Shown piece by piece: positions 2,620 through 46,517 of a stretch of 47,036 nt of DNA. Under the pieces are notes generated by a model that saw only the letters and a list, made by a program, of their open reading frames with translations, was not told the DNA's origin and made no database searches. The stretch is from IMG/VR virus record IMGVR_UViG_3300007609_001205, positions 104,834-151,869 of that record, one strand, 5' to 3'. Source of the DNA: a virus (Duplodnaviria; Heunggongvirae; Uroviricota; Caudoviricetes). A program made the position numbers and the translations under genes. Numbering within the stretch: the first letter of the stretch is position 1; each line of letters starts with the position of its first letter.

Positions 2620-3348
2620 ATGGAATTCAAATTCGAAGATATTATTTCAGTTGGAGACTTACACGGTCATTGGGAAGTTGTTATTGAACATATTAATAGA
2701 TATGACATCAAAAACACCTTATACCTATGTGTTGGTGATTTTGGTGTGGGGACACACCTCACAAAAAATAAAGAATTTCTTTTGAAATTGAATGATACAT
2801 TAAAATCAAGCAATAACTCATTCTTCACAATCCGTGGCAACCACGATGACCCAGAATGGTTTGTTAGTGGAAAACACGATGATTTCAAGAAACAATTATC
2901 AAACATCTTATTCATTGAAGATTATTCTATATTGAATATCAATGATGAGAATTATTTATTCATTGGTGGAGCACATTCGGTTGATAGAGTTGCACGGAAT
3001 GGAAGAGGTCTTCCACATTGGGAAGATGAGGTTGTTAGATTTGATTATGATTTCTGTGAAACAGTATCCAATATCGATAGGATGTTCTGCCATACCTCGC
3101 CTATGTTCTGTCCACCAATTGGCCCACATTCTGGATTTATTATGGATAATGCCGAGTCAGACCCTAGTTTATTACAGGACATTTACAATGAAAGAACACA
3201 AATGACTAAGATTGTTGATGATATTATGGCTAATAATAAATTGAAAACGTTCCATTATGGACATTTTCATAAGCCAAGTAAAATCACACACAATGGCTGT
3301 GAATTCATATGTTTGGATATCAATGAATTCTCGATGATCAACTATTAA
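2620..3348 (+). CDS. calcineurin-like metallophosphoesterase
   Basis: GDLHG, GDFG, RGNHD, HTSP, GHFH motifs. Confidence 0.9.
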   Translation: MEFKFEDIISVGDLHGHWEVVIEHINRYDIKNTLYLCVGDFGVGTHLTKNKEFLLKLNDTLKSSNNSFFTIRGNHDDPEWFVSGKHDDFKKQLSNILFIEDYSILNINDENYLFIGGAHSVDRVARNGRGLPHWEDEVVRFDYDFCETVSNIDRMFCHTSPMFCPPIGPHSGFIMDNAESDPSLLQDIYNERTQMTKIVDDIMANNKLKTFHYGHFHKPSKITHNGCEFICLDINEFSMINY

Positions 3349-3369
3349 AAACATACAAATTCAGAAATC

Positions 3370-3606
3370 ATGAAAGTTTATTCTAAAATTTATTTAGTGT
3401 CAGACCCATTTGGGACAAAAGAGTATGCTACTTGTCAAGAAAGTAGTGATATCATACAGATCAATAGCCTAAAAAATAGTTTAGGCGAAAACAAATTCTT
3501 TGAATCAGATGCATACCATCTTGAAGATTGGTGTATTGAAAATGGTTTTGAATATAAGTGTATTAATAAGGAATATGACTTTGACGAATTGTGGAAAGAT
3601 CAATAG
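3370..3606 (+). CDS. hypothetical protein (78 aa)
   Basis: ORF track; fills the intergenic space. Confidence 0.6.
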   Translation: MKVYSKIYLVSDPFGTKEYATCQESSDIIQINSLKNSLGENKFFESDAYHLEDWCIENGFEYKCINKEYDFDELWKDQ

Positions 3607-5078
3607 CTTACAATAACTTGATAAGGATATTTTCTACCATCATCTACACTTTCCTCAAACTCCTTATTGGTTTTATCCAAATGAGATTTCATTTTTACAA
3701 AATCTGATTCCTCTTTGAAACCCAATAAAAATCTACTATCTTTCTTCCATGGACCACCAAGCCTACAACTCCAAGCACGGTGACCCTCGACCATTTTACG
3801 TGCATCTATACCAGCATCTTTGAGCAAATTACCAACTGCTTCAAGTGTGTAAGAATTATCTAACCCACTATTTTCTTTTTCCAAATCTTCTTTGGTTAAA
3901 ACATCTTTCTTTGCTGATTCTACTTTGGTAGCCAAATCATCTTTTGATGATTCATTAAAATTTCCAAAATTCTTTAAATGTTCCATAATATCTTTCTTCT
4001 TTTTTTTACTCTCAATGGAGTTCTTCTTCTTTTTAACATCCTCTTCTTCTTCTAATTCTTTAGAAACCTTCGCAAGTTCTTTTGAGGATTTTTTAAGTAT
4101 CGAATTGGTAGAGTTCTCACTATCAGTGTATATATTATCTGATAATTTACCAAAATCTTTAAACCCCACTAATGAGGATTGAAGTCCCGGAGTCCCACCA
4201 ACAAAGGTATTGGCATTTGATTCTATTTTACGAACTATTTTCTTCATATCATTTGGGTCATTTGTATTCTTTATAACATATTCCTTTATATGTGTGAATT
4301 CCTCATGGTCTAAATTTTTAATAAGATCTTCCATATGTCGTACATTTCCTAGATCATCATCAGAAAATCCTATCTTTGCATATACACCTAACTCACCTGC
4401 CCACTTATTGACCTTCTGTTTAAAGTCAAGTAACGCCTTTTCCTTTTCCTTTTCGGGGTTACTTGTATCACCACCCCGTGATGGTGCAGATATACCAACC
4501 AGATCACAATGCGATATATATCGTTTAAACACCCCATTATCACTTGGCTTACCTTGTATTTTCCGAGGTATGTCTTTAATATCCTTTCCAAATTGATATT
4601 CAAATCGGATAAGGTTCATATACATTGTACTCTTTTGGTCATCAGTCAGATAATCATCTATAATGTATTCTATACCTTTGGCAATCGATTTTGGTTCATG
4701 ACCACGGGCTGTTATAATAGCAAAAAGTGATCCATTCACGAGACATTCAATGAAGTCATCCCATGATGGACCAAACTTCTCATCTTTTATTGCCGATATA
4801 ACATCCTCGAAAAAGGCATTAGAACCCCTCGGACCATTATCACGGAACTCAGAAAAAGCCTTTTCTGGATCATTATCAATGATTCTATAATCGTCATCTG
4901 ATCTAACTGAAGCAAATTCACTGGTTGAAATATCAACTGGAACCCATTCATCATCTACTAGTCTTTCCATATGGATGACTGTAGGCATATTCAGAATATT
5001 ATCATCTACATCAAAGGCATAGAATAATATATGATCACCTGACCAATTCTCATTATATGATGAGAATCTGGTTATCAC
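3600..5078 (-). CDS. HAD-superfamily phosphatase-like protein with charged linker and extra C-terminal domain
   Basis: Motif I FDVDD, motif II ITAR, motif IV FSDDD. Confidence 0.7.
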   Translation of the reverse strand: MITRFSSYNENWSGDHILFYAFDVDDNILNMPTVIHMERLVDDEWVPVDISTSEFASVRSDDDYRIIDNDPEKAFSEFRDNGPRGSNAFFEDVISAIKDEKFGPSWDDFIECLVNGSLFAIITARGHEPKSIAKGIEYIIDDYLTDDQKSTMYMNLIRFEYQFGKDIKDIPRKIQGKPSDNGVFKRYISHCDLVGISAPSRGGDTSNPEKEKEKALLDFKQKVNKWAGELGVYAKIGFSDDDLGNVRHMEDLIKNLDHEEFTHIKEYVIKNTNDPNDMKKIVRKIESNANTFVGGTPGLQSSLVGFKDFGKLSDNIYTDSENSTNSILKKSSKELAKVSKELEEEEDVKKKKNSIESKKKKKDIMEHLKNFGNFNESSKDDLATKVESAKKDVLTKEDLEKENSGLDNSYTLEAVGNLLKDAGIDARKMVEGHRAWSCRLGGPWKKDSRFLLGFKEESDFVKMKSHLDKTNKEFEESVDDGRKYPYQVIVSY

Positions 5079-38775: not shown

Positions 38776-38848
38776 GGTGGATGTAGCTCAGGGGAAGAGT
38801 GTCGGTTTGTGAAACCGAAGGTCGGGATTTCGAAACTCCTCATCCACA
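38776..38848 (+). tRNA. tRNA-His(GTG), G-1 opposite A73, T-stem mismatch
   Basis: Cloverleaf folded by hand; anticodon 38809-38811; no encoded CCA. Confidence 0.8.
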
Positions 38849-38850
38849 CA

Positions 38851-38921
38851 TAGTCAGAACTGATGTGGTGCAGTGCCCCTGAGAAACAGGGGGATTTGAG
38901 GGTTCGATTCCCTCCTGACAA
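38851..38921 (+). tRNA. atypical tRNA-like element (nominal GAA anticodon, no U33)
   Basis: Perfect T-arm GAGGG-TTCGATT-CCCTC; acceptor core GTCAG/CTGAC; anticodon arm CCCCT-GAGAAAC-AGGGG. Confidence 0.5.
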
Positions 38922-38926
38922 AAATT

Positions 38927-39000
38927 GGCTTCGTAACTCAGCCGGGTAGAGTGACAGACTGAAAATCTGTTGGTCATGGGTTCAAATCCCATCGAAGCCA
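38927..39000 (+). tRNA. tRNA-Phe(GAA)
   Basis: Canonical cloverleaf; ACAGA-CTGAAAA-TCTGT. Confidence 0.95.
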
Positions 39001-39009
39001 CAAACATAC

Positions 39010-39082
39010 GATCTCGTAGCTCAGTTGGTAGAGCATTCCCCTTTTAAGGGAAGGGTCGTGGGTTCGAGGCCTACCGGGATCA
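39010..39082 (+). tRNA. tRNA-Lys(TTT)
   Basis: Canonical cloverleaf; TTCCC-CTTTTAA-GGGAA. Confidence 0.95.
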
Positions 39083-39091
39083 CTAAAATAT

Positions 39092-39183
39092 GGTGATTGT
39101 AGCTGAATGGTATGTAGTACCGTAAGGGAACAAGCACTTGGTTGTGACCCAAGAGGATGCCGGTTCGAGTCCGGTCTTTCACC
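39092..39183 (+). tRNA. tRNA-His(GTG) with G-1:C73 and greatly expanded D-loop
   Basis: CTTGG-TTGTGAC-CCAAG; 28-nt D-loop (39105-39132); two T-T mismatches in acceptor stem. Confidence 0.8.
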
Positions 39184-39191
39184 CAAAATAT

Positions 39192-39265
39192 GGCACCGTA
39201 ACTCAGTCTGGTAGAGTGGTCCCCTGAAGAGGGAAGGGTCGTTGGTTCAAATCCAACCGGTGCCA
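39192..39265 (+). tRNA. tRNA-Phe(GAA), G37 variant
   Basis: GTCCC-CTGAAGA-GGGAA; full acceptor and T arms. Confidence 0.9.
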
Positions 39266-39280
39266 CAGAAAATATTAAAT

Positions 39281-39355
39281 GCAGGAGTAGCTCAGCCTGG
39301 TCAGAGCAACGGTCTCCAAAACCGTGTGTCGGTGGTTCGAATCCATCCTCCTGTG
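39281..39355 (+). tRNA. tRNA-Trp(CCA)
   Basis: ACGGT-CTCCAAA-ACCGT; canonical arms. Confidence 0.93.
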
Positions 39356-39369
39356 CAAAAAAAAATAGA

Positions 39370-39411
39370 ATGAGAATGAAAACTAAACGGAAATATAAAC
39401 AGTTTAGTTAG
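39370..39411 (+). CDS. Lys-rich leader peptide 2 (MRMKTKRKYKQFS)
   Basis: 4 AAA codons in 13; stop overlaps hairpin 39405-39434; precedes two tRNA-Lys genes and lysS. Confidence 0.55.
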   Translation: MRMKTKRKYKQFS

Positions 39412-39439
39412 ACTTGATGAAAAGAGTCTAACTACATTA

Positions 39440-39532
39440 GGCTCTGTCGTATAGCGGCCATTACACCTCCCTTTTAAGGAGATGAGGTAATCAAGTCCTC
39501 GACCGTGGGTTCGAGTCCCACCAGAGCCACCA
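39440..39532 (+). tRNA. tRNA-Lys(TTT) with long variable arm and encoded CCA
   Basis: CCTCC-CTTTTAA-GGAGA; 22-nt variable region with GAGG/CCTC stem; ACCA end. Confidence 0.85.
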
Positions 39533-39616
39533 GCGTTTGTGGGTGAGTGGTCGAAACCAATAGTCTCTTAAACTATCTCCGTAAGGACATCGCAGGTCCG
39601 AATCCTGCCAAACGCA
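39533..39616 (+). tRNA. tRNA with Lys(CTT) anticodon on a class II (Leu/Ser/Tyr-like) body
   Basis: ATAGT-CTCTTAA-ACTAT; D-arm GGT-GAGTGGTCGAA-ACC; variable arm CTCCGTAAGGACATC; T-loop TCCGAAT; A73. Confidence 0.85.
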
Positions 39617-39669
39617 CATCGAACCCATAATGTGTATATTAAGGCACTTACATTCACAATATATACATT

Positions 39670-40617
39670 ATGGAATATTATGAAGAAATACAAAAATACT
39701 ATGATGATGGACATACAATTGCGGAAACATGTTTAAAATTCAATATAAGTGAGAGTAAAGCATATCGGGCATCAAAAAGAGGACAACTAAAATTTAGAAG
39801 TCTGAGTGAAGCGATGAAAATATCATGTAAAAAGAAACCTAGAAAGCATACAGATGAAACAAAAGAAAAACTAAGTAAGATACGTAAAGAATATCTTCGA
39901 AAAAATCCAAATAAAGTCCCATACCTATTAAACCACAGTAGTAAAGGATCGTATCCGGAAAAATACTTTACTGAGGTATTTAAAAGGGAAGGATTAGATG
40001 TTGTTAAAAAATTTAGAGTTTCTTTATATGAACTTGACTTTTCTATACCACATAAAAAGATAGATATTGAAATAGATGGGAATCAACATTATGATGATAT
40101 TAAAATAGTTGAAAGTGATATTAGGAGAAATGAATTTCTCGAAACAGAAGGATGGGATGTAATACGTATAAATTGGTCAAACTATCAAAAATTAAATTAT
40201 AAAGAGAAAAATATGTTCATAAATGACCTCAAATCTTATGTAAATAATTTAAGTGAAATCAAACCAACCATAACCACTAAACCAAGTATGAGAGGAAAAA
40301 ATTTATGTGAATGTGGTGGATTAAAAACAAAAAAATCTAAACTATGTAAAATATGTAGGCACGAAAACTCTAAAAAAAGAGATATTAAATCTTATAAATC
40401 AGAACGTAGAAAAAAATATAAATGCAATTCTTGTGGGAATAAATGTACAAATAAAAATAAACGATGTCGTAAATGTTACGAGATTGATAATAGAAAGGTT
40501 ACCGACCGACCAAGCAAAGAATCACTCATAAAAGATATTGAAAACATAGGATATTCTGCAACGGGTCGAAAGTATGGTGTTAGTGATAATACTATACGAA
40601 AATGGATTAAGAATTAA
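39670..40617 (+). mobile_element. free-standing homing endonuclease-like gene (NUMOD3-like + Vsr/DUF559 nuclease + Zn ribbons + HTH)
   Basis: KHTDETKEKLSKIRK; ELDF..IEIDGNQH..D..RNEFLE..GWDVIRI; CECG, CKIC, CNSC, CRKC; ATGRKYGVSDNTIRKW. Confidence 0.8.
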
Positions 40618-40632
40618 TTAAAATCACAAATA

Positions 40633-41832
40633 ATGGAAACACTAAATTTTAGAATTTTAAACATCAGATTGCACGGTAGGTCAGCCTTTATGGATGTTCT
40701 AACCAACGGTGAAAACTTACAGTGTTATATAAACTCACAAGTTGAAAACTTCACCGAGATAACAGAACTACCAAATGGTTCTCACCTTGGCTGTCGTGGA
40801 GAATACTTCACAACAAGAACAGGACACTACACATTCAGAATACTTGAAGCAGACATTCTGAATATTCCCAACAGACCATTACCTGTTGTTCAAAATGATG
40901 GTGAAACACTGTATAACATAACAACTGATAGAGAAGATATCCGAAGAAGAAGATATCTGAACACTATACTCAATCCAAATGAAAGAGATATATTTGTTAC
41001 TCGATCAAGACTTATCTCTTTGATAAGAAACTTCTATAATGACAATGGTTATATGGAGGTAGAAACACCTATCTTACAACCAGTATATGGTGGTGCAGAG
41101 GCAACTCCATTCACTACACATTTCGAATCACTTGATATGGATTGTTATATGAGAATTGCACCTGAATTGTATCTTAGAAGAATGATCATTGGTGGTTATG
41201 ATAGAGTTTTCGAGATAGGTAGAAATTTTCGAAATGAAGGGATTTCTTCTCGACACAATCCAGAATTCACTGTTATGGAATCATATACTGCATATGAGGA
41301 TTATAACTTCAGTATGGACATGGTTGAAAACATTCTTTTGGGAATTCATAATGAATTTGGAACCGTTACATACAATGGGAATGAAATAGATTTCTCAAAT
41401 GTATCAAGAATATCATTCGTGGAATCAATTGAAAGATACTATGGTGAAACAGAAAGCCTTTCAGATATTGAATTGAATGAGTTGTTTGAAACACACGTTG
41501 AGCCAAATTTGATACAACCAACAATGGTATATGATTACCCATCAAGTATAAGTCCATTGGCACAAGTGAGATCGGACAATGAAAACATTGCCGAAAGATT
41601 TGAACTTTTCATCTCAGGTATGGAAATTGCCAATGCCTATTCAGAACTTAACGATATAACCAGACACGTTGAGAATATTGGAGACGATGACCAAGATTTC
41701 ATTGATGCACTATCATATGGTATGCCACCAACAACCGGTATCGGTATCGGTATCGATAGATTGGTTATGATACTTACTGATAGAACAATCAGAGATGTTA
41801 TCTATTTCCCTATGATGAGAAACCGTTCCTGA
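40633..41832 (+). CDS. lysS: class II lysyl-tRNA synthetase, compact and lysine-free
   Basis: OB-fold N-terminus; EVETPIL, GGAEATPF, RIAPELYL, FRNEG..HNPEF, E.ANAYSELND, YGMPP..GIGIDRLVM. Confidence 0.95.
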   Translation: METLNFRILNIRLHGRSAFMDVLTNGENLQCYINSQVENFTEITELPNGSHLGCRGEYFTTRTGHYTFRILEADILNIPNRPLPVVQNDGETLYNITTDREDIRRRRYLNTILNPNERDIFVTRSRLISLIRNFYNDNGYMEVETPILQPVYGGAEATPFTTHFESLDMDCYMRIAPELYLRRMIIGGYDRVFEIGRNFRNEGISSRHNPEFTVMESYTAYEDYNFSMDMVENILLGIHNEFGTVTYNGNEIDFSNVSRISFVESIERYYGETESLSDIELNELFETHVEPNLIQPTMVYDYPSSISPLAQVRSDNENIAERFELFISGMEIANAYSELNDITRHVENIGDDDQDFIDALSYGMPPTTGIGIGIDRLVMILTDRTIRDVIYFPMMRNRS

Positions 41833-45860: not shown

Positions 45861-46517
45861 ATGAAAAACGAAATTAAATTAGAATCAACATACAAGGGTA
45901 CACGAATATTATGTGGGGAAATTGCAACCTATAAAAGAAAACTAATAAATGAAATGGTTGATAAAGTCACAGAGAAAGGATTCACAGAAGTAATGATACC
46001 TATAATCCAAAAACAAGACACTTTCCTTTCGAAAGTCGGTGATGAAAACCAAAAGATGATGTACTCGTTCAAAGACCGTGGGAATAGGGATCTCTGCCTT
46101 GCACCCGAATACACTGCCGTTGTTCAAAAATTGGCGAAAGAGGAATTTATATTTGGTAAAGGGAAACCTATGCCCGATGTAAAGTTATTTTACATTTCAG
46201 AATGTTTCCGAGGAGAGAACTCACAGAAAGGGAGATACCGACAATTTACACAATTTGGAGTGGAAATATTAAACCCCACAAAAGATTATTCTGACTACCT
46301 TTTGAATCTTGCAACTGAACTTATTTCTATGGTTACTCCGGATTATGAATATGATAAAGAGACAAGGAGGGGTCTTGATTATTATACCGAGGGAAAGGGG
46401 TTTGAAGTATCTTGCACTGAACTAGGGGCACAGAAACAGATATGTGGTGGTGGATCGTATGATGGTGGGATTGGATTTGCATTGGGTATTGATAGACTTA
46501 TATTAATTAAAGATTGA
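45861..46517 (+). CDS. hisS: minimal histidyl-tRNA synthetase (catalytic core only), histidine-free
   Basis: KGTR, motif 1 FTEVMIPII, LAPEYT, motif 2 FRGE..QKGRYRQFTQ, RGLDYY, GGGSYDG, motif 3 GFALGIDRL; no anticodon-binding domain. Confidence 0.88.
   Translation: MKNEIKLESTYKGTRILCGEIATYKRKLINEMVDKVTEKGFTEVMIPIIQKQDTFLSKVGDENQKMMYSFKDRGNRDLCLAPEYTAVVQKLAKEEFIFGKGKPMPDVKLFYISECFRGENSQKGRYRQFTQFGVEILNPTKDYSDYLLNLATELISMVTPDYEYDKETRRGLDYYTEGKGFEVSCTELGAQKQICGGGSYDGGIGFALGIDRLILIKD

What the first reader, a model, noticed from the sequence alone, without database searches (positions are those of the whole stretch)
39533..39616. Lys(CUU) anticodon on a Leu/Ser/Tyr-type class II body
The D-arm, variable arm and A73 are class II-like, and the T-loop is UCCGAAU. 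Bacterial LeuRS largely ignores the anticodon, so this tRNA might insert Leu at AAG (deliberate mistranslation to bypass Lys starvation). Alternatively it may be an orthogonal substrate of the phage LysRS.
Basis: partly seen in the sequence, partly recalled or inferred. Interest (0 to 1): 0.75.

Follow-up and report, generated by a model that had tools for sequence, protein, structure and literature searches.

The report
Phage lysine tRNA with extra arm
This is a real phage tRNA that reads the lysine codon AAG but carries an extra arm normally found only on leucine, serine and tyrosine tRNAs; it belongs to a widespread, almost phage-only family of such lysine tRNAs, apparently undescribed, and most likely still inserts lysine, helping the phage keep translating when the host's lysine tRNAs fail.

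Summary
Window 39533-39616 is an 84-nt tRNA with anticodon CUU, A73, a 15-nt variable arm and a T-loop reading UCCGAAU.

It is not a one-off. The tRNA directly upstream (39440-39532, anticodon UUU) has the same build. Such long-arm lysine tRNAs recur in related megaphages, in at least 75 IMG/VR contigs, and in cultured phages such as phiCbK, where they are annotated simply as tRNA-Lys. In 596 Gb of cellular genomes they are rare and sit mostly inside dense, phage-like tRNA arrays.

Family evidence favours lysine identity:
- The anticodon loop is C-U-(U/C)-U-U-A-A in 55 of 58 sequences.
- UUU and CUU swap between near-identical copies.
- The discriminator base tracks that of the ordinary tRNA-Lys in the same phage, not tRNA-Leu or tRNA-Tyr.
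- One megaphage has only long-arm lysine tRNAs and no LysRS.
- AAG codons sit at conserved lysine positions.

The arm geometry differs from that of Ser, Leu and Tyr tRNAs. Deliberate Leu insertion at AAG is not supported. A strictly orthogonal pair with the phage LysRS is unlikely, although here the tRNAs sit behind a lysine-rich leader and ahead of a lysine-free LysRS.

The arm's role is inferred: probably evasion of host nucleases that target tRNA-Lys. I found no paper describing this family.

The parts
39533..39616 (+). Long-arm tRNA-Lys(CUU), the finding: 84 nt to A73; anticodon at 39567-39569; variable arm at 39577-39591; C55 at 39598
   Evidence: ARAGORN; Rfam tRNA model 58.7 bits; family model R1 88.9 bits; ortholog with compensatory changes in L002 and L282
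39440..39532 (+). Long-arm tRNA-Lys(UUU): 90 nt to A73 plus an encoded CCA; 22-nt variable region; abuts the CUU tRNA with no spacer
   Evidence: ARAGORN; Rfam 53.3 bits; R1 80.5 bits
39370..39411 (+). 13-codon lysine-rich leader ORF (MRMKTKRKYKQFS, four AAA codons) just upstream of the long-arm tRNA pair
   Evidence: Small ORFs of the same type (MMRMKQKYKQVG, MKTKRKYKR, MKTKLKYKR, MRTITIKRKCKR) precede the Lys tRNA block in L002, LR756502, LR745206 and L009
39401..39438 (+). Hairpin with an 11-bp core stem that overlaps the leader's stop codon. No U-tract follows, so its role is not established
   Evidence: RNAfold -13.7 kcal/mol; equivalent hairpins with different sequence occur in the four other phages
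39010..39083 (+). Ordinary (class I) tRNA-Lys(UUU) in the upstream part of the same array
   Evidence: ARAGORN; Rfam 65.2 bits
39670..40617 (+). Endonuclease-like gene (DUF559, REase_MTES_1575, HTH and NUMOD3 matches; probably a homing endonuclease) lying between the tRNAs and LysRS
   Evidence: Pfam. Missing from this position in L009, L282, L283 and L284, where the tRNAs adjoin LysRS
40633..41832 (+). Compact 399-aa class II lysyl-tRNA synthetase with no lysine codon
   Evidence: NCBIfam lysS 424 bits, below the 468-bit cut-off. OB anticodon-binding domain retained; N-terminal ~60 aa and short insertions missing. 0 of 399 codons are Lys against 7.9% genome-wide. 46 of the 57 clade members listed are lysine-free

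Best explanation
The gene encodes a functional lysine tRNA that reads AAG and is charged with lysine. It belongs to a phage-restricted structural family of tRNA-Lys. That family has a base-paired extra arm (1 nt, a 3-5 bp stem, usually a tetraloop, then four unpaired bases CAYC) added to an otherwise lysine-type identity set: the C-U-N-U-U-A-A loop and a discriminator matching the local tRNA-Lys rule.

In this phage it is the second of two such tRNAs (UUU, then CUU). They are probably transcribed behind a lysine-rich leader ORF and ahead of a lysine-free LysRS. Together these form a module that can restart lysine decoding when charged tRNA-Lys runs out, for example after host defence nucleases that target tRNA-Lys have acted.

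Shown here:
- the tRNA structure and its covariation;
- the family's breadth and near-restriction to phages;
- anticodon and discriminator behaviour consistent with lysine identity;
- the gene neighbourhood and the lysine-free LysRS.

Inferred:
- that lysine is the amino acid attached;
- co-transcription and regulation by the leader;
- that the extra arm's purpose is to make the tRNA a poor substrate for tRNA-Lys-directed nucleases.
For: Structure:
- 13 copies in five related megaphages give 97% paired cells, with compensatory changes in 20 of 23 pairs, including all three arm pairs.
- 58 distinct family members give 98% paired cells, with all 23 pairs compensatory. The alignment was fitted to the model.

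Lysine identity:
- C32, U33, A37 and A38 are invariant. U35 is present in 56 of 58 and U36 in 57 of 58. The three exceptions carry other anticodons.
- The CUU copy in LR756502 and a UUU copy in LR745206 are 94% identical outside the anticodon and arm.
- The discriminator covaries with the ordinary tRNA-Lys of the same locus, while Leu and Tyr stay A73.
- Published identity rules state that lysine identity is the anticodon plus A73, and that transplanting UUU suffices in the human system (PMC9976931).
- LR756502 has only long-arm Lys tRNAs and no LysRS of either class. A host enzyme must therefore charge them.
- AAG codons lie at conserved K/R columns and never at L.

Module:
- A K-rich leader precedes the Lys tRNA block in 5 of 5 phages examined.
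- Long-arm Lys tRNAs lie directly upstream of LysRS in 6 of 9 LysRS lineages.
- The LysRS has 0 of 399 lysines, as do 46 of 57 relatives, and keeps its anticodon-binding OB fold.

Phage restriction:
- 75 of 80 fetched IMG/VR matches are real long-arm tRNA-Lys, against 13 of 80 from 596 Gb of prokaryote genomes. Of those 13, 8 lie among 8-29 tRNAs within 8 kb.

Precedent:
- tRNA-Lys is the main target of PrrC, PARIS AriB and a bacterial Schlafen, and phage tRNA-Lys variants rescue infection (PMC11555353, PMC12409363, PMC13056530).
- AriB resistance depends partly on tRNA features outside the anticodon stem-loop.
- The other isotypes with long-arm variants in these loci are mostly Thr, Met, Asn and Ile, which overlaps the AriB and Schlafen target lists.
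Against: No aminoacylation or expression data exist for any family member.

This copy alone has C55 in place of the near-universal U55 (57 of 58 family members have U), which could weaken it.

Its D-arm (U8 G9, 3-bp stem, G13-A22) resembles tRNA-Leu. Among non-family tRNAs, a tRNA-Leu is one of its closest cores at 0.66, against 0.64 for the best ordinary tRNA-Lys. It has A73, so LeuRS mischarging of this particular copy cannot be excluded from sequence.

The nuclease-evasion role of the arm is by analogy only. The host and its defence systems are unknown. PrrC and AriB recognise mainly the anticodon arm, which is canonical here.

The leader hairpin has no U-tract, so attenuation is unproven.

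The discriminator test counts loci that are not phylogenetically independent.
Confidence: 0.62

Rival explanations
1. Orthogonal pair. The extra arm makes the tRNA unusable by the host LysRS, and the compact phage LysRS, made without any lysine, is its dedicated charging enzyme. The phage would thus own a private lysine-decoding channel.
For: The tRNA block lies directly upstream of LysRS, on the same strand, in 6 of 9 LysRS lineages. The LysRS is lysine-free in 46 of 57 relatives, so it can be made before any Lys-tRNA exists. It lacks the N-terminal helix and short insertions. From my own knowledge, not tested here: class II synthetases approach tRNA from the variable-loop side, so an arm could clash with a standard LysRS.
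Against: LR756502 and LR745206 carry three long-arm Lys tRNAs each but no LysRS of either class. None of 80 IMG/VR loci has a LysRS within the fetched flanks. phiCbK-type phages have only long-arm Lys tRNAs in their annotated arrays. Three LysRS lineages have no long-arm tRNA nearby.
Confidence: 0.15
2. Mis-sense tRNA. The class II body is charged by LeuRS (or TyrRS or SerRS), so AAG is partly read as Leu, Tyr or Ser.
For: A73, U8 G9, a 3-bp D-stem and a long arm. E. coli LeuRS ignores both the anticodon and the arm (PMC9976931). nev-tRNAs with Gly or Ile anticodons are a published precedent (PMC3333845, abstract). A phage tRNA-Leu is among the closest non-family cores (0.66).
Against: See the points on discriminator covariation, arm geometry, Lys-only anticodons, LR756502 having no other tRNA-Lys, and the AAG column analysis. 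In addition, this copy has a G15-C48 pair rather than the A15-U48 pair important for E. coli LeuRS. Lysine makes up 7.9% of codons, so systematic misreading would be very costly.
Confidence: 0.04
3. Decoy or decaying copy. The RNA is made but serves as a sponge for tRNA-Lys nucleases or other tRNA-binding factors, or this particular copy is drifting toward a pseudogene.
For: C55 is unique to this copy among 58 family members. The anticodon stem is AU-rich. PMC12409363 raises non-productive complexes as a possible phage strategy. A degenerate tRNA-like sequence already lies in the same array at 38851-38922.
Against: All five stems are fully paired, and the identity elements and anticodon loop are intact. 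The sequence is identical in a second, independent assembly. The orthologs in L002 and L282 keep the CUU anticodon. It is the only CUU tRNA-Lys found on this contig, though the contig is only about 25% of the genome.
Confidence: 0.1
4. Ordinary tRNA-Lys with a functionally neutral or merely stabilising arm. The arm has no role in defence evasion or synthetase choice and is inherited simply because the family is old.
For: No direct evidence ties the arm to any nuclease. The same megaphages also carry sporadic long arms on Asn, Gln, Glu, Thr, Met and His tRNAs, and short arms on some Leu tRNAs. This suggests loose constraints on this region.
Against: The arm stem is kept by compensatory changes across hosts as distant as Caulobacter phages and the megaphages studied here (96.5% paired). 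The CAYC linker is conserved. The type is near-absent from cellular genomes. Many phages carry an ordinary and a long-arm tRNA-Lys side by side (53 of 80 loci), which is hard to explain without a distinct role.
Confidence: 0.15

Closest known systems
Bacterial and phage tRNA-Lys (class I, 4-5 nt variable loop)
   Same: Anticodon loop C-U-(U/C)-U-U-A-A. A73 here, or U73 where the local ordinary tRNA-Lys also has it. A 7/5 acceptor/T-stem layout and G18 G19. The ordinary and long-arm forms often sit in the same array.
   Different: A 13-22 nt base-paired variable arm with a conserved 3' CAYC linker. D-arms are unlike the ordinary tRNA-Lys D-arm (UAGCUCAGUUGGUAGAGCA in this window). This copy has C55.
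Class II tRNAs of bacteria (Leu, Ser, Tyr)
   Same: A long, base-paired variable arm. For this copy, also U8 G9, a 3-bp D-stem, G13-A22 and A73, as in tRNA-Leu.
   Different: Lys anticodons only. Four unpaired bases 3' of the arm, against 1 (Ser), 2 (Leu) and 3 (Tyr). The discriminator varies with the tRNA-Lys rule, not with the Leu/Tyr rule.
Nematode nev-tRNAs (PMC3333845) and allo-tRNAs (PMC5389517)
   Same: A variable arm on tRNAs whose anticodons belong to amino acids that normally use class I tRNAs.
   Different: The nev-tRNA paper's title describes an alternative code for leucine; from my own knowledge, their bodies are tRNA-Leu-like and are charged with Leu in vitro. Allo-tRNAs have 8/4 or 9/3 acceptor/T-stems; from my own knowledge, they carry serine identity. 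The phage family is 7/5, forms its own group, and behaves as lysine-specific by the discriminator and anticodon evidence.
Phage counter-defence tRNAs: T5 tRNA-Lys(UUU) against PARIS AriB (PMC11464382, PMC12409363); SP15 tRNA-Lys against PrrC170 (PMC11555353)
   Same: Phage-encoded tRNA-Lys that replaces host tRNA-Lys destroyed by a defence nuclease. Resistance is encoded in the tRNA itself. Companion Thr and Asn tRNAs are also involved, and long-arm Thr and Asn tRNAs occur in these phages too.
   Different: The T5 variant differs by point changes in the anticodon stem (U39A, A41C), not by an added arm. No nuclease or host is known for the family described here.
Leader-peptide attenuators of amino-acid operons, and T-box control of synthetase genes
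   Same: A short ORF enriched in one amino acid's codons sits upstream of genes that serve that amino acid, followed by a hairpin.
   Different: The genes controlled here would be tRNAs plus a synthetase. The hairpin has no U-tract, and no alternative pairing was shown for this leader.

Membership tests
tRNA (Rfam RF00005) | Cloverleaf that scores above the family's gathering threshold | tested here: met
   58.7 bits against a 29-bit threshold, E = 1.5e-11
tRNA-Lys | Anticodon UUU or CUU, with U35 and U36, in a 7-nt loop with U33 and A37 | tested here: met
   Loop CUCUUAA. C32, U33, A37 and A38 are invariant and U35/U36 present in 56 and 57 of 58 family members
tRNA-Lys | Discriminator A73 (E. 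coli class II LysRS rule, PMC9976931) | tested here: met
   A73 at 39616. Across the family the discriminator follows that of the ordinary tRNA-Lys in the same locus
tRNA-Lys | Short (4-5 nt) variable loop | tested here: not met
   15-nt variable region with a 3-bp stem
tRNA-Lys | Aminoacylation with lysine | not testable with these tools
   Indirect support only
Class II tRNA-Leu, -Ser and -Tyr | Long, base-paired variable arm | tested here: met
   The arm stem covaries: 96.5% paired, with compensatory changes in 3 of 3 pairs
Class II tRNA-Leu, -Ser and -Tyr | Anticodon of Leu, Ser or Tyr | tested here: not met
   CUU here; the family's anticodons are UUU or CUU apart from three higher-scoring relatives with other anticodons
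Class II tRNA-Leu, -Ser and -Tyr | Isotype-specific number of unpaired bases 3' of the arm | tested here: not met
   Lys has mostly 4 (45 of 70 structured arms). Ser has 1 (42 of 51), Leu 2 (10 of 16) and Tyr 3 (9 of 12)
Class II tRNA-Leu and -Tyr | Strict A73 | tested here: inconclusive
   This copy has A73. One third of the family has U73, while Leu and Tyr in the same loci stay A73
nev-tRNA or allo-tRNA type mis-sense tRNAs | Body of a Leu or Ser acceptor (nev), or an 8/4 or 9/3 acceptor/T-stem layout (allo) | tested here: not met
   7/5 layout. Family members are each other's nearest cores; tRNA-Leu is only a secondary neighbour for this subtype
Phage counter-defence tRNAs | Phage-encoded isoacceptor of a tRNA that defence nucleases target | tested here: met
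   It lies in a phage tRNA array. tRNA-Lys is the target of PrrC, AriB and RorSlfn5
Phage counter-defence tRNAs | Resistance to cleavage and rescue of infection | not testable with these tools
   Host and nuclease are unknown

The most novel reading that the evidence does not exclude
The extra arm is a virus-specific device. It defines a fourth family of class II tRNAs, found almost only in phages, whose arm makes tRNA-Lys (and occasionally Thr, Asn and Met tRNAs) invisible to host defence nucleases while leaving lysine charging intact. In this megaphage lineage it is wired, together with a lysine-sensing leader and a lysine-free LysRS, into a self-starting operon that can reboot lysine decoding from zero charged tRNA-Lys.
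Probability: 0.35. Interest if true: 0.85.

Novelty: new variant of a known kind. Interest (0 to 1): 0.62.

Why it matters
Long variable arms are textbook markers of Leu, Ser, Tyr and Sec tRNAs. The few exceptions described so far (nev-tRNAs, allo-tRNAs) drew attention because they blur the genetic code.

Here a large, conserved family of lysine tRNAs carries such an arm. It is almost restricted to phages. It is already present, unremarked, in well-studied phages such as phiCbK; the genome paper says nothing about it, and nine literature searches found no description of it.

If the arm protects against tRNA-Lys-directed immunity, it would be a new structural route of phage counter-defence, and it is testable in the Caulobacter/phiCbK system. 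If it does not, it still shows that lysine identity tolerates a class II body, which is useful for engineering orthogonal tRNAs.

In this window, the leader, the two long-arm tRNAs and the lysine-free LysRS together form an unusually explicit design for surviving loss of one charged tRNA species.

Tried and rejected
- The search for related loci with the single LysRS protein found nothing in IMG/VR. Relatives came instead from the protein database and contig look-ups.
- blastn of the two tRNAs against cultured phages gave only short matches, apart from two megaphages. The family was reached with a spacing-constrained DNA pattern.
- The Walker-A lysine codon count was too small to be informative (6 AAA, 1 AAG).
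- All 119 UvsW homologs used for the AAG column test are at least 68% identical and come from the same phage clade. The test shows the substitution pattern (K, R, S, N, E; never L) but is not an independent decoding test.
- The control lines of the class I and class II LysRS searches did not say which model genomes passed. My recollection that alphaproteobacterial hosts use class I LysRS therefore stays untested.
- Core-similarity ranking does not resolve the origin of the body.
- A Ser-type identity was considered and dropped: G73 is essentially absent from the family and the arm geometry differs.
- An intron, or an ARAGORN artefact, was considered as the cause of the extra length and dropped: the Rfam alignment places the insertion in the variable region and the arm covaries.

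Full report
**The object**

ARAGORN finds eight tRNAs at 38777-39617 on the + strand. The last two are tRNA-Lys(UUU) of 93 nt at 39440-39532 and tRNA-Lys(CUU) of 85 nt at 39533-39617. Rfam's tRNA model matches both, at 53.3 and 58.7 bits, and places the extra bases in the variable region.

Read from the sequence, the CUU tRNA has these features:
- a perfect 7-bp acceptor stem;
- U8 G9 and a 3-bp D-stem with G13-A22;
- anticodon loop CUCUUAA;
- a variable region of 1 nt, a 3-bp stem, a GUAA loop and 4 nt;
- a 5-bp T-stem and the T-loop UCCGAAU;
- A73.

A second, independent assembly is identical, including C55.

**Setting**

The window is the last 47 kb of a 152-kb contig at 33% GC. CheckV rates the contig as about 25% of a genome. 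It carries phage genes: a UvsW-like helicase and a baseplate spike with a CHAP domain. One protein has a type IX secretion sorting domain, which points to a Bacteroidota host.

Downstream of the two tRNAs lie:
- an endonuclease-like gene with DUF559 and NUMOD3 matches;
- a 399-aa class II LysRS;
- further on, a 218-aa HisRS core.

**It is a family, not an accident**

A syntenic relative, L002 (LysRS 79% identical), has the same array, ending in long-arm Lys(UUU) and Lys(CUU). Its acceptor, D and anticodon stems show compensatory changes, and its T-loop is the normal UUCGAAU.

Long-arm Lys tRNAs also occur in L009, L282, L283 and L284, directly upstream of LysRS. They occur too in the 640-kb megaphages LR756502 and LR745206.

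Thirteen copies gave alignment A2 and model R1. In that alignment 97% of cells pair, and 20 of 23 pairs show changes on both sides, including all three arm pairs. No shuffle or slid control comes near these values.

I then scanned IMG/VR for CTTTTAA, 16-27 bases, CGTGGGTTCGA. Of the 80 loci fetched, 75 hold ARAGORN long-arm tRNA-Lys genes, 92 in all.

Cultured phages have them as well. phiCbK carries tRNA-Lys genes of 88 and 91 nt, for AAG and AAA. Mesorhizobium phage Cp1R7A-A1 carries two of 88 nt. All are annotated plainly as tRNA-Lys. The phiCbK genome paper does not comment on them.

The same pattern scanned over 596 Gb of prokaryote genomes gave 98 matches. Only 13 of the 80 fetched are real. 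Eight of those 13 lie among 8-29 tRNAs within 8 kb, which is a phage-like arrangement.

A model-fitted alignment of 58 distinct members has 98% paired cells, with all 23 pairs compensatory. Its conserved features are U8, A14, G18 G19, G30-C40, the loop C-U-(U/C)-U-U-A-A, a CAYC linker after the arm, and U55 in 57 of 58. The single C55 is the window's copy.

**Which amino acid?**

Six lines of evidence point to lysine.

1. The anticodons are confined to UUU and CUU in 55 of 58 members. The two swap between copies that are 94% identical elsewhere.
2. Published identity rules make the anticodon plus A73 the lysine identity set. E. coli LeuRS needs A73 together with A15-U48, G18 G19 and A20a (PMC9976931). 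This copy has G15-C48.
3. About a third of the family has U73. In loci that also hold an ordinary tRNA-Lys, the two discriminators go together: A/A 36, U/U 8, U/A 10, A/U 0 (Fisher p = 4e-5; the loci are not phylogenetically independent). tRNA-Leu and tRNA-Tyr in the same loci keep A73.
4. The arm is followed by four unpaired bases in most members, against 1 for Ser, 2 for Leu and 3 for Tyr in the same phages.
5. LR756502 has about 50 tRNAs covering nearly all amino acids, but its only Lys-anticodon tRNAs are three long-arm ones. It has no LysRS of either class. A host enzyme must charge them, and they fill the lysine slot.
6. The 19 AAG codons of the helicase lie in columns that are 70% K, 5% R and 0% L in 119 homologs. 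Eight of those columns are invariant K. The homologs are clade-mates, so this shows the substitution pattern rather than providing independent proof.

Deliberate Leu insertion at AAG is therefore not supported. Low-level mischarging of this particular A73, Leu-like D-arm copy cannot be excluded from sequence alone.

**Relation to the phage LysRS**

The LysRS keeps its OB anticodon-binding domain but lacks the N-terminal ~60 residues and short insertions. It contains no lysine at all, in a genome where lysine is 7.9% of codons. The same is true of 46 of the 57 listed relatives, down to 53% identity.

I followed this lead from earlier notes on this genome and confirmed it here.

A short lysine-rich ORF followed by a hairpin precedes the Lys tRNA block in all five phages examined. 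The peptides are similar, and the hairpin sequences differ but still pair.

Long-arm tRNAs adjoin LysRS in 6 of 9 LysRS lineages. The other three have none nearby. None of 80 IMG/VR long-arm loci has a LysRS in its flanks.

The tRNA family therefore does not depend on a phage LysRS. In this lineage the two have been joined into one module that looks built for conditions with no charged tRNA-Lys.

**Why an arm?**

This part is inference.
- tRNA-Lys is the recurrent target of bacterial defence nucleases: PrrC, PARIS AriB and a bacterial Schlafen.
- Phage tRNA-Lys variants rescue infection in those systems.
- AriB also cuts Thr and Asn tRNAs. Its resistance determinants extend beyond the anticodon arm, and a predicted model spans anticodon-stem positions 40-41 and the D-loop (PMC11555353, PMC12409363, PMC13056530).
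- In the phage loci, the other isotypes that sometimes carry long arms are mainly Thr, Met, Asn and Ile. Two of the three non-Lys sequences that score as members of the Lys family have G at anticodon position 35.

An arm that emerges next to the 3' strand of the anticodon stem could plausibly block such enzymes. No nuclease or host is known here, and a neutral or stabilising role remains possible.

**Verdict**

The mistranslation reading is not supported. The link to the phage LysRS is real but not exclusive.

The tRNA is best described as a member of a phage-specific long-arm tRNA-Lys family. I did not find that family described in nine literature searches.

Noticed in passing
window 39093-39183: Rfam finds a tRNA with a His (GUG) anticodon loop and a ~20-nt insertion placed in the D-loop (51.7 bits). 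ARAGORN misses it. Its counterpart in L002 (8519-8604) is called an 86-nt tRNA-His with an extra arm. The phage also encodes a HisRS reduced to its catalytic core.
   Followed up: partly
window 38851-38922: ARAGORN calls a tRNA-Phe here with mismatched acceptor ends, and Rfam does not report it. It is probably a degenerate tRNA copy within the array.
   Followed up: no
LR756502 and LR745206 (loci L016, L017, L019, L020, L023; L051-L059): These megaphages carry single long-arm versions of Asn, Gln, Glu, Thr and possibly Arg and Pro tRNAs, with isotype-appropriate discriminators in several cases. They also carry 74-76 nt tRNA-Leu (UAA, UAG, CAA) that lack the long arm. Arm status is unusually fluid in this clade.
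   Followed up: partly
L008 (OU342829.1) 3263-4561 and 96-183: A 432-aa LeuRS-like protein scores 416 bits against a 548-bit cut-off and matches in three separate stretches, apparently lacking much of a full-length LeuRS. An 88-nt long-arm tRNA with a CAU anticodon lies 3 kb upstream.
   Followed up: no
window 40633-41832 and proteins P0001-P0057: The ~400-aa phage LysRS clade is completely lysine-free in 46 of the 57 members listed. Five members (P0018, P0052-P0055) have a normal 5-6% lysine, a natural contrast for testing why.
   Followed up: partly
window 45861-46517: The 218-aa HisRS core contains no histidine (22 Lys, 0 His), mirroring the lysine-free LysRS.
   Followed up: partly
window 39529-39533: The UUU long-arm tRNA has an encoded CCA and abuts the first base of the CUU tRNA with no spacer. 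The CUU tRNA has no encoded CCA. The two must therefore be processed differently.
   Followed up: no
L283 3913-3984 and L284 3905-3979: In two LysRS-linked arrays the CUU tRNA-Lys is a 72-75 nt molecule with an aberrant T-loop (AUCGUUA) in place of a long-arm copy.
   Followed up: no
L196, L239, L260 (MAG contigs of 0.36-2.8 Mb labelled Actinomycetota or Thermoleophilia): Single long-arm tRNA-Lys(UUU) genes stand alone, not inside tRNA arrays, on large chromosomal contigs. They could be rare cellular members or integration remnants.
   Followed up: no
window 39670-40617: The endonuclease-like gene between the tRNAs and the lysine-free LysRS is very lysine-rich (53 of 315 residues). It is absent at this position in L009, L282, L283 and L284, so it looks like a later insertion into the module.
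   Followed up: partly
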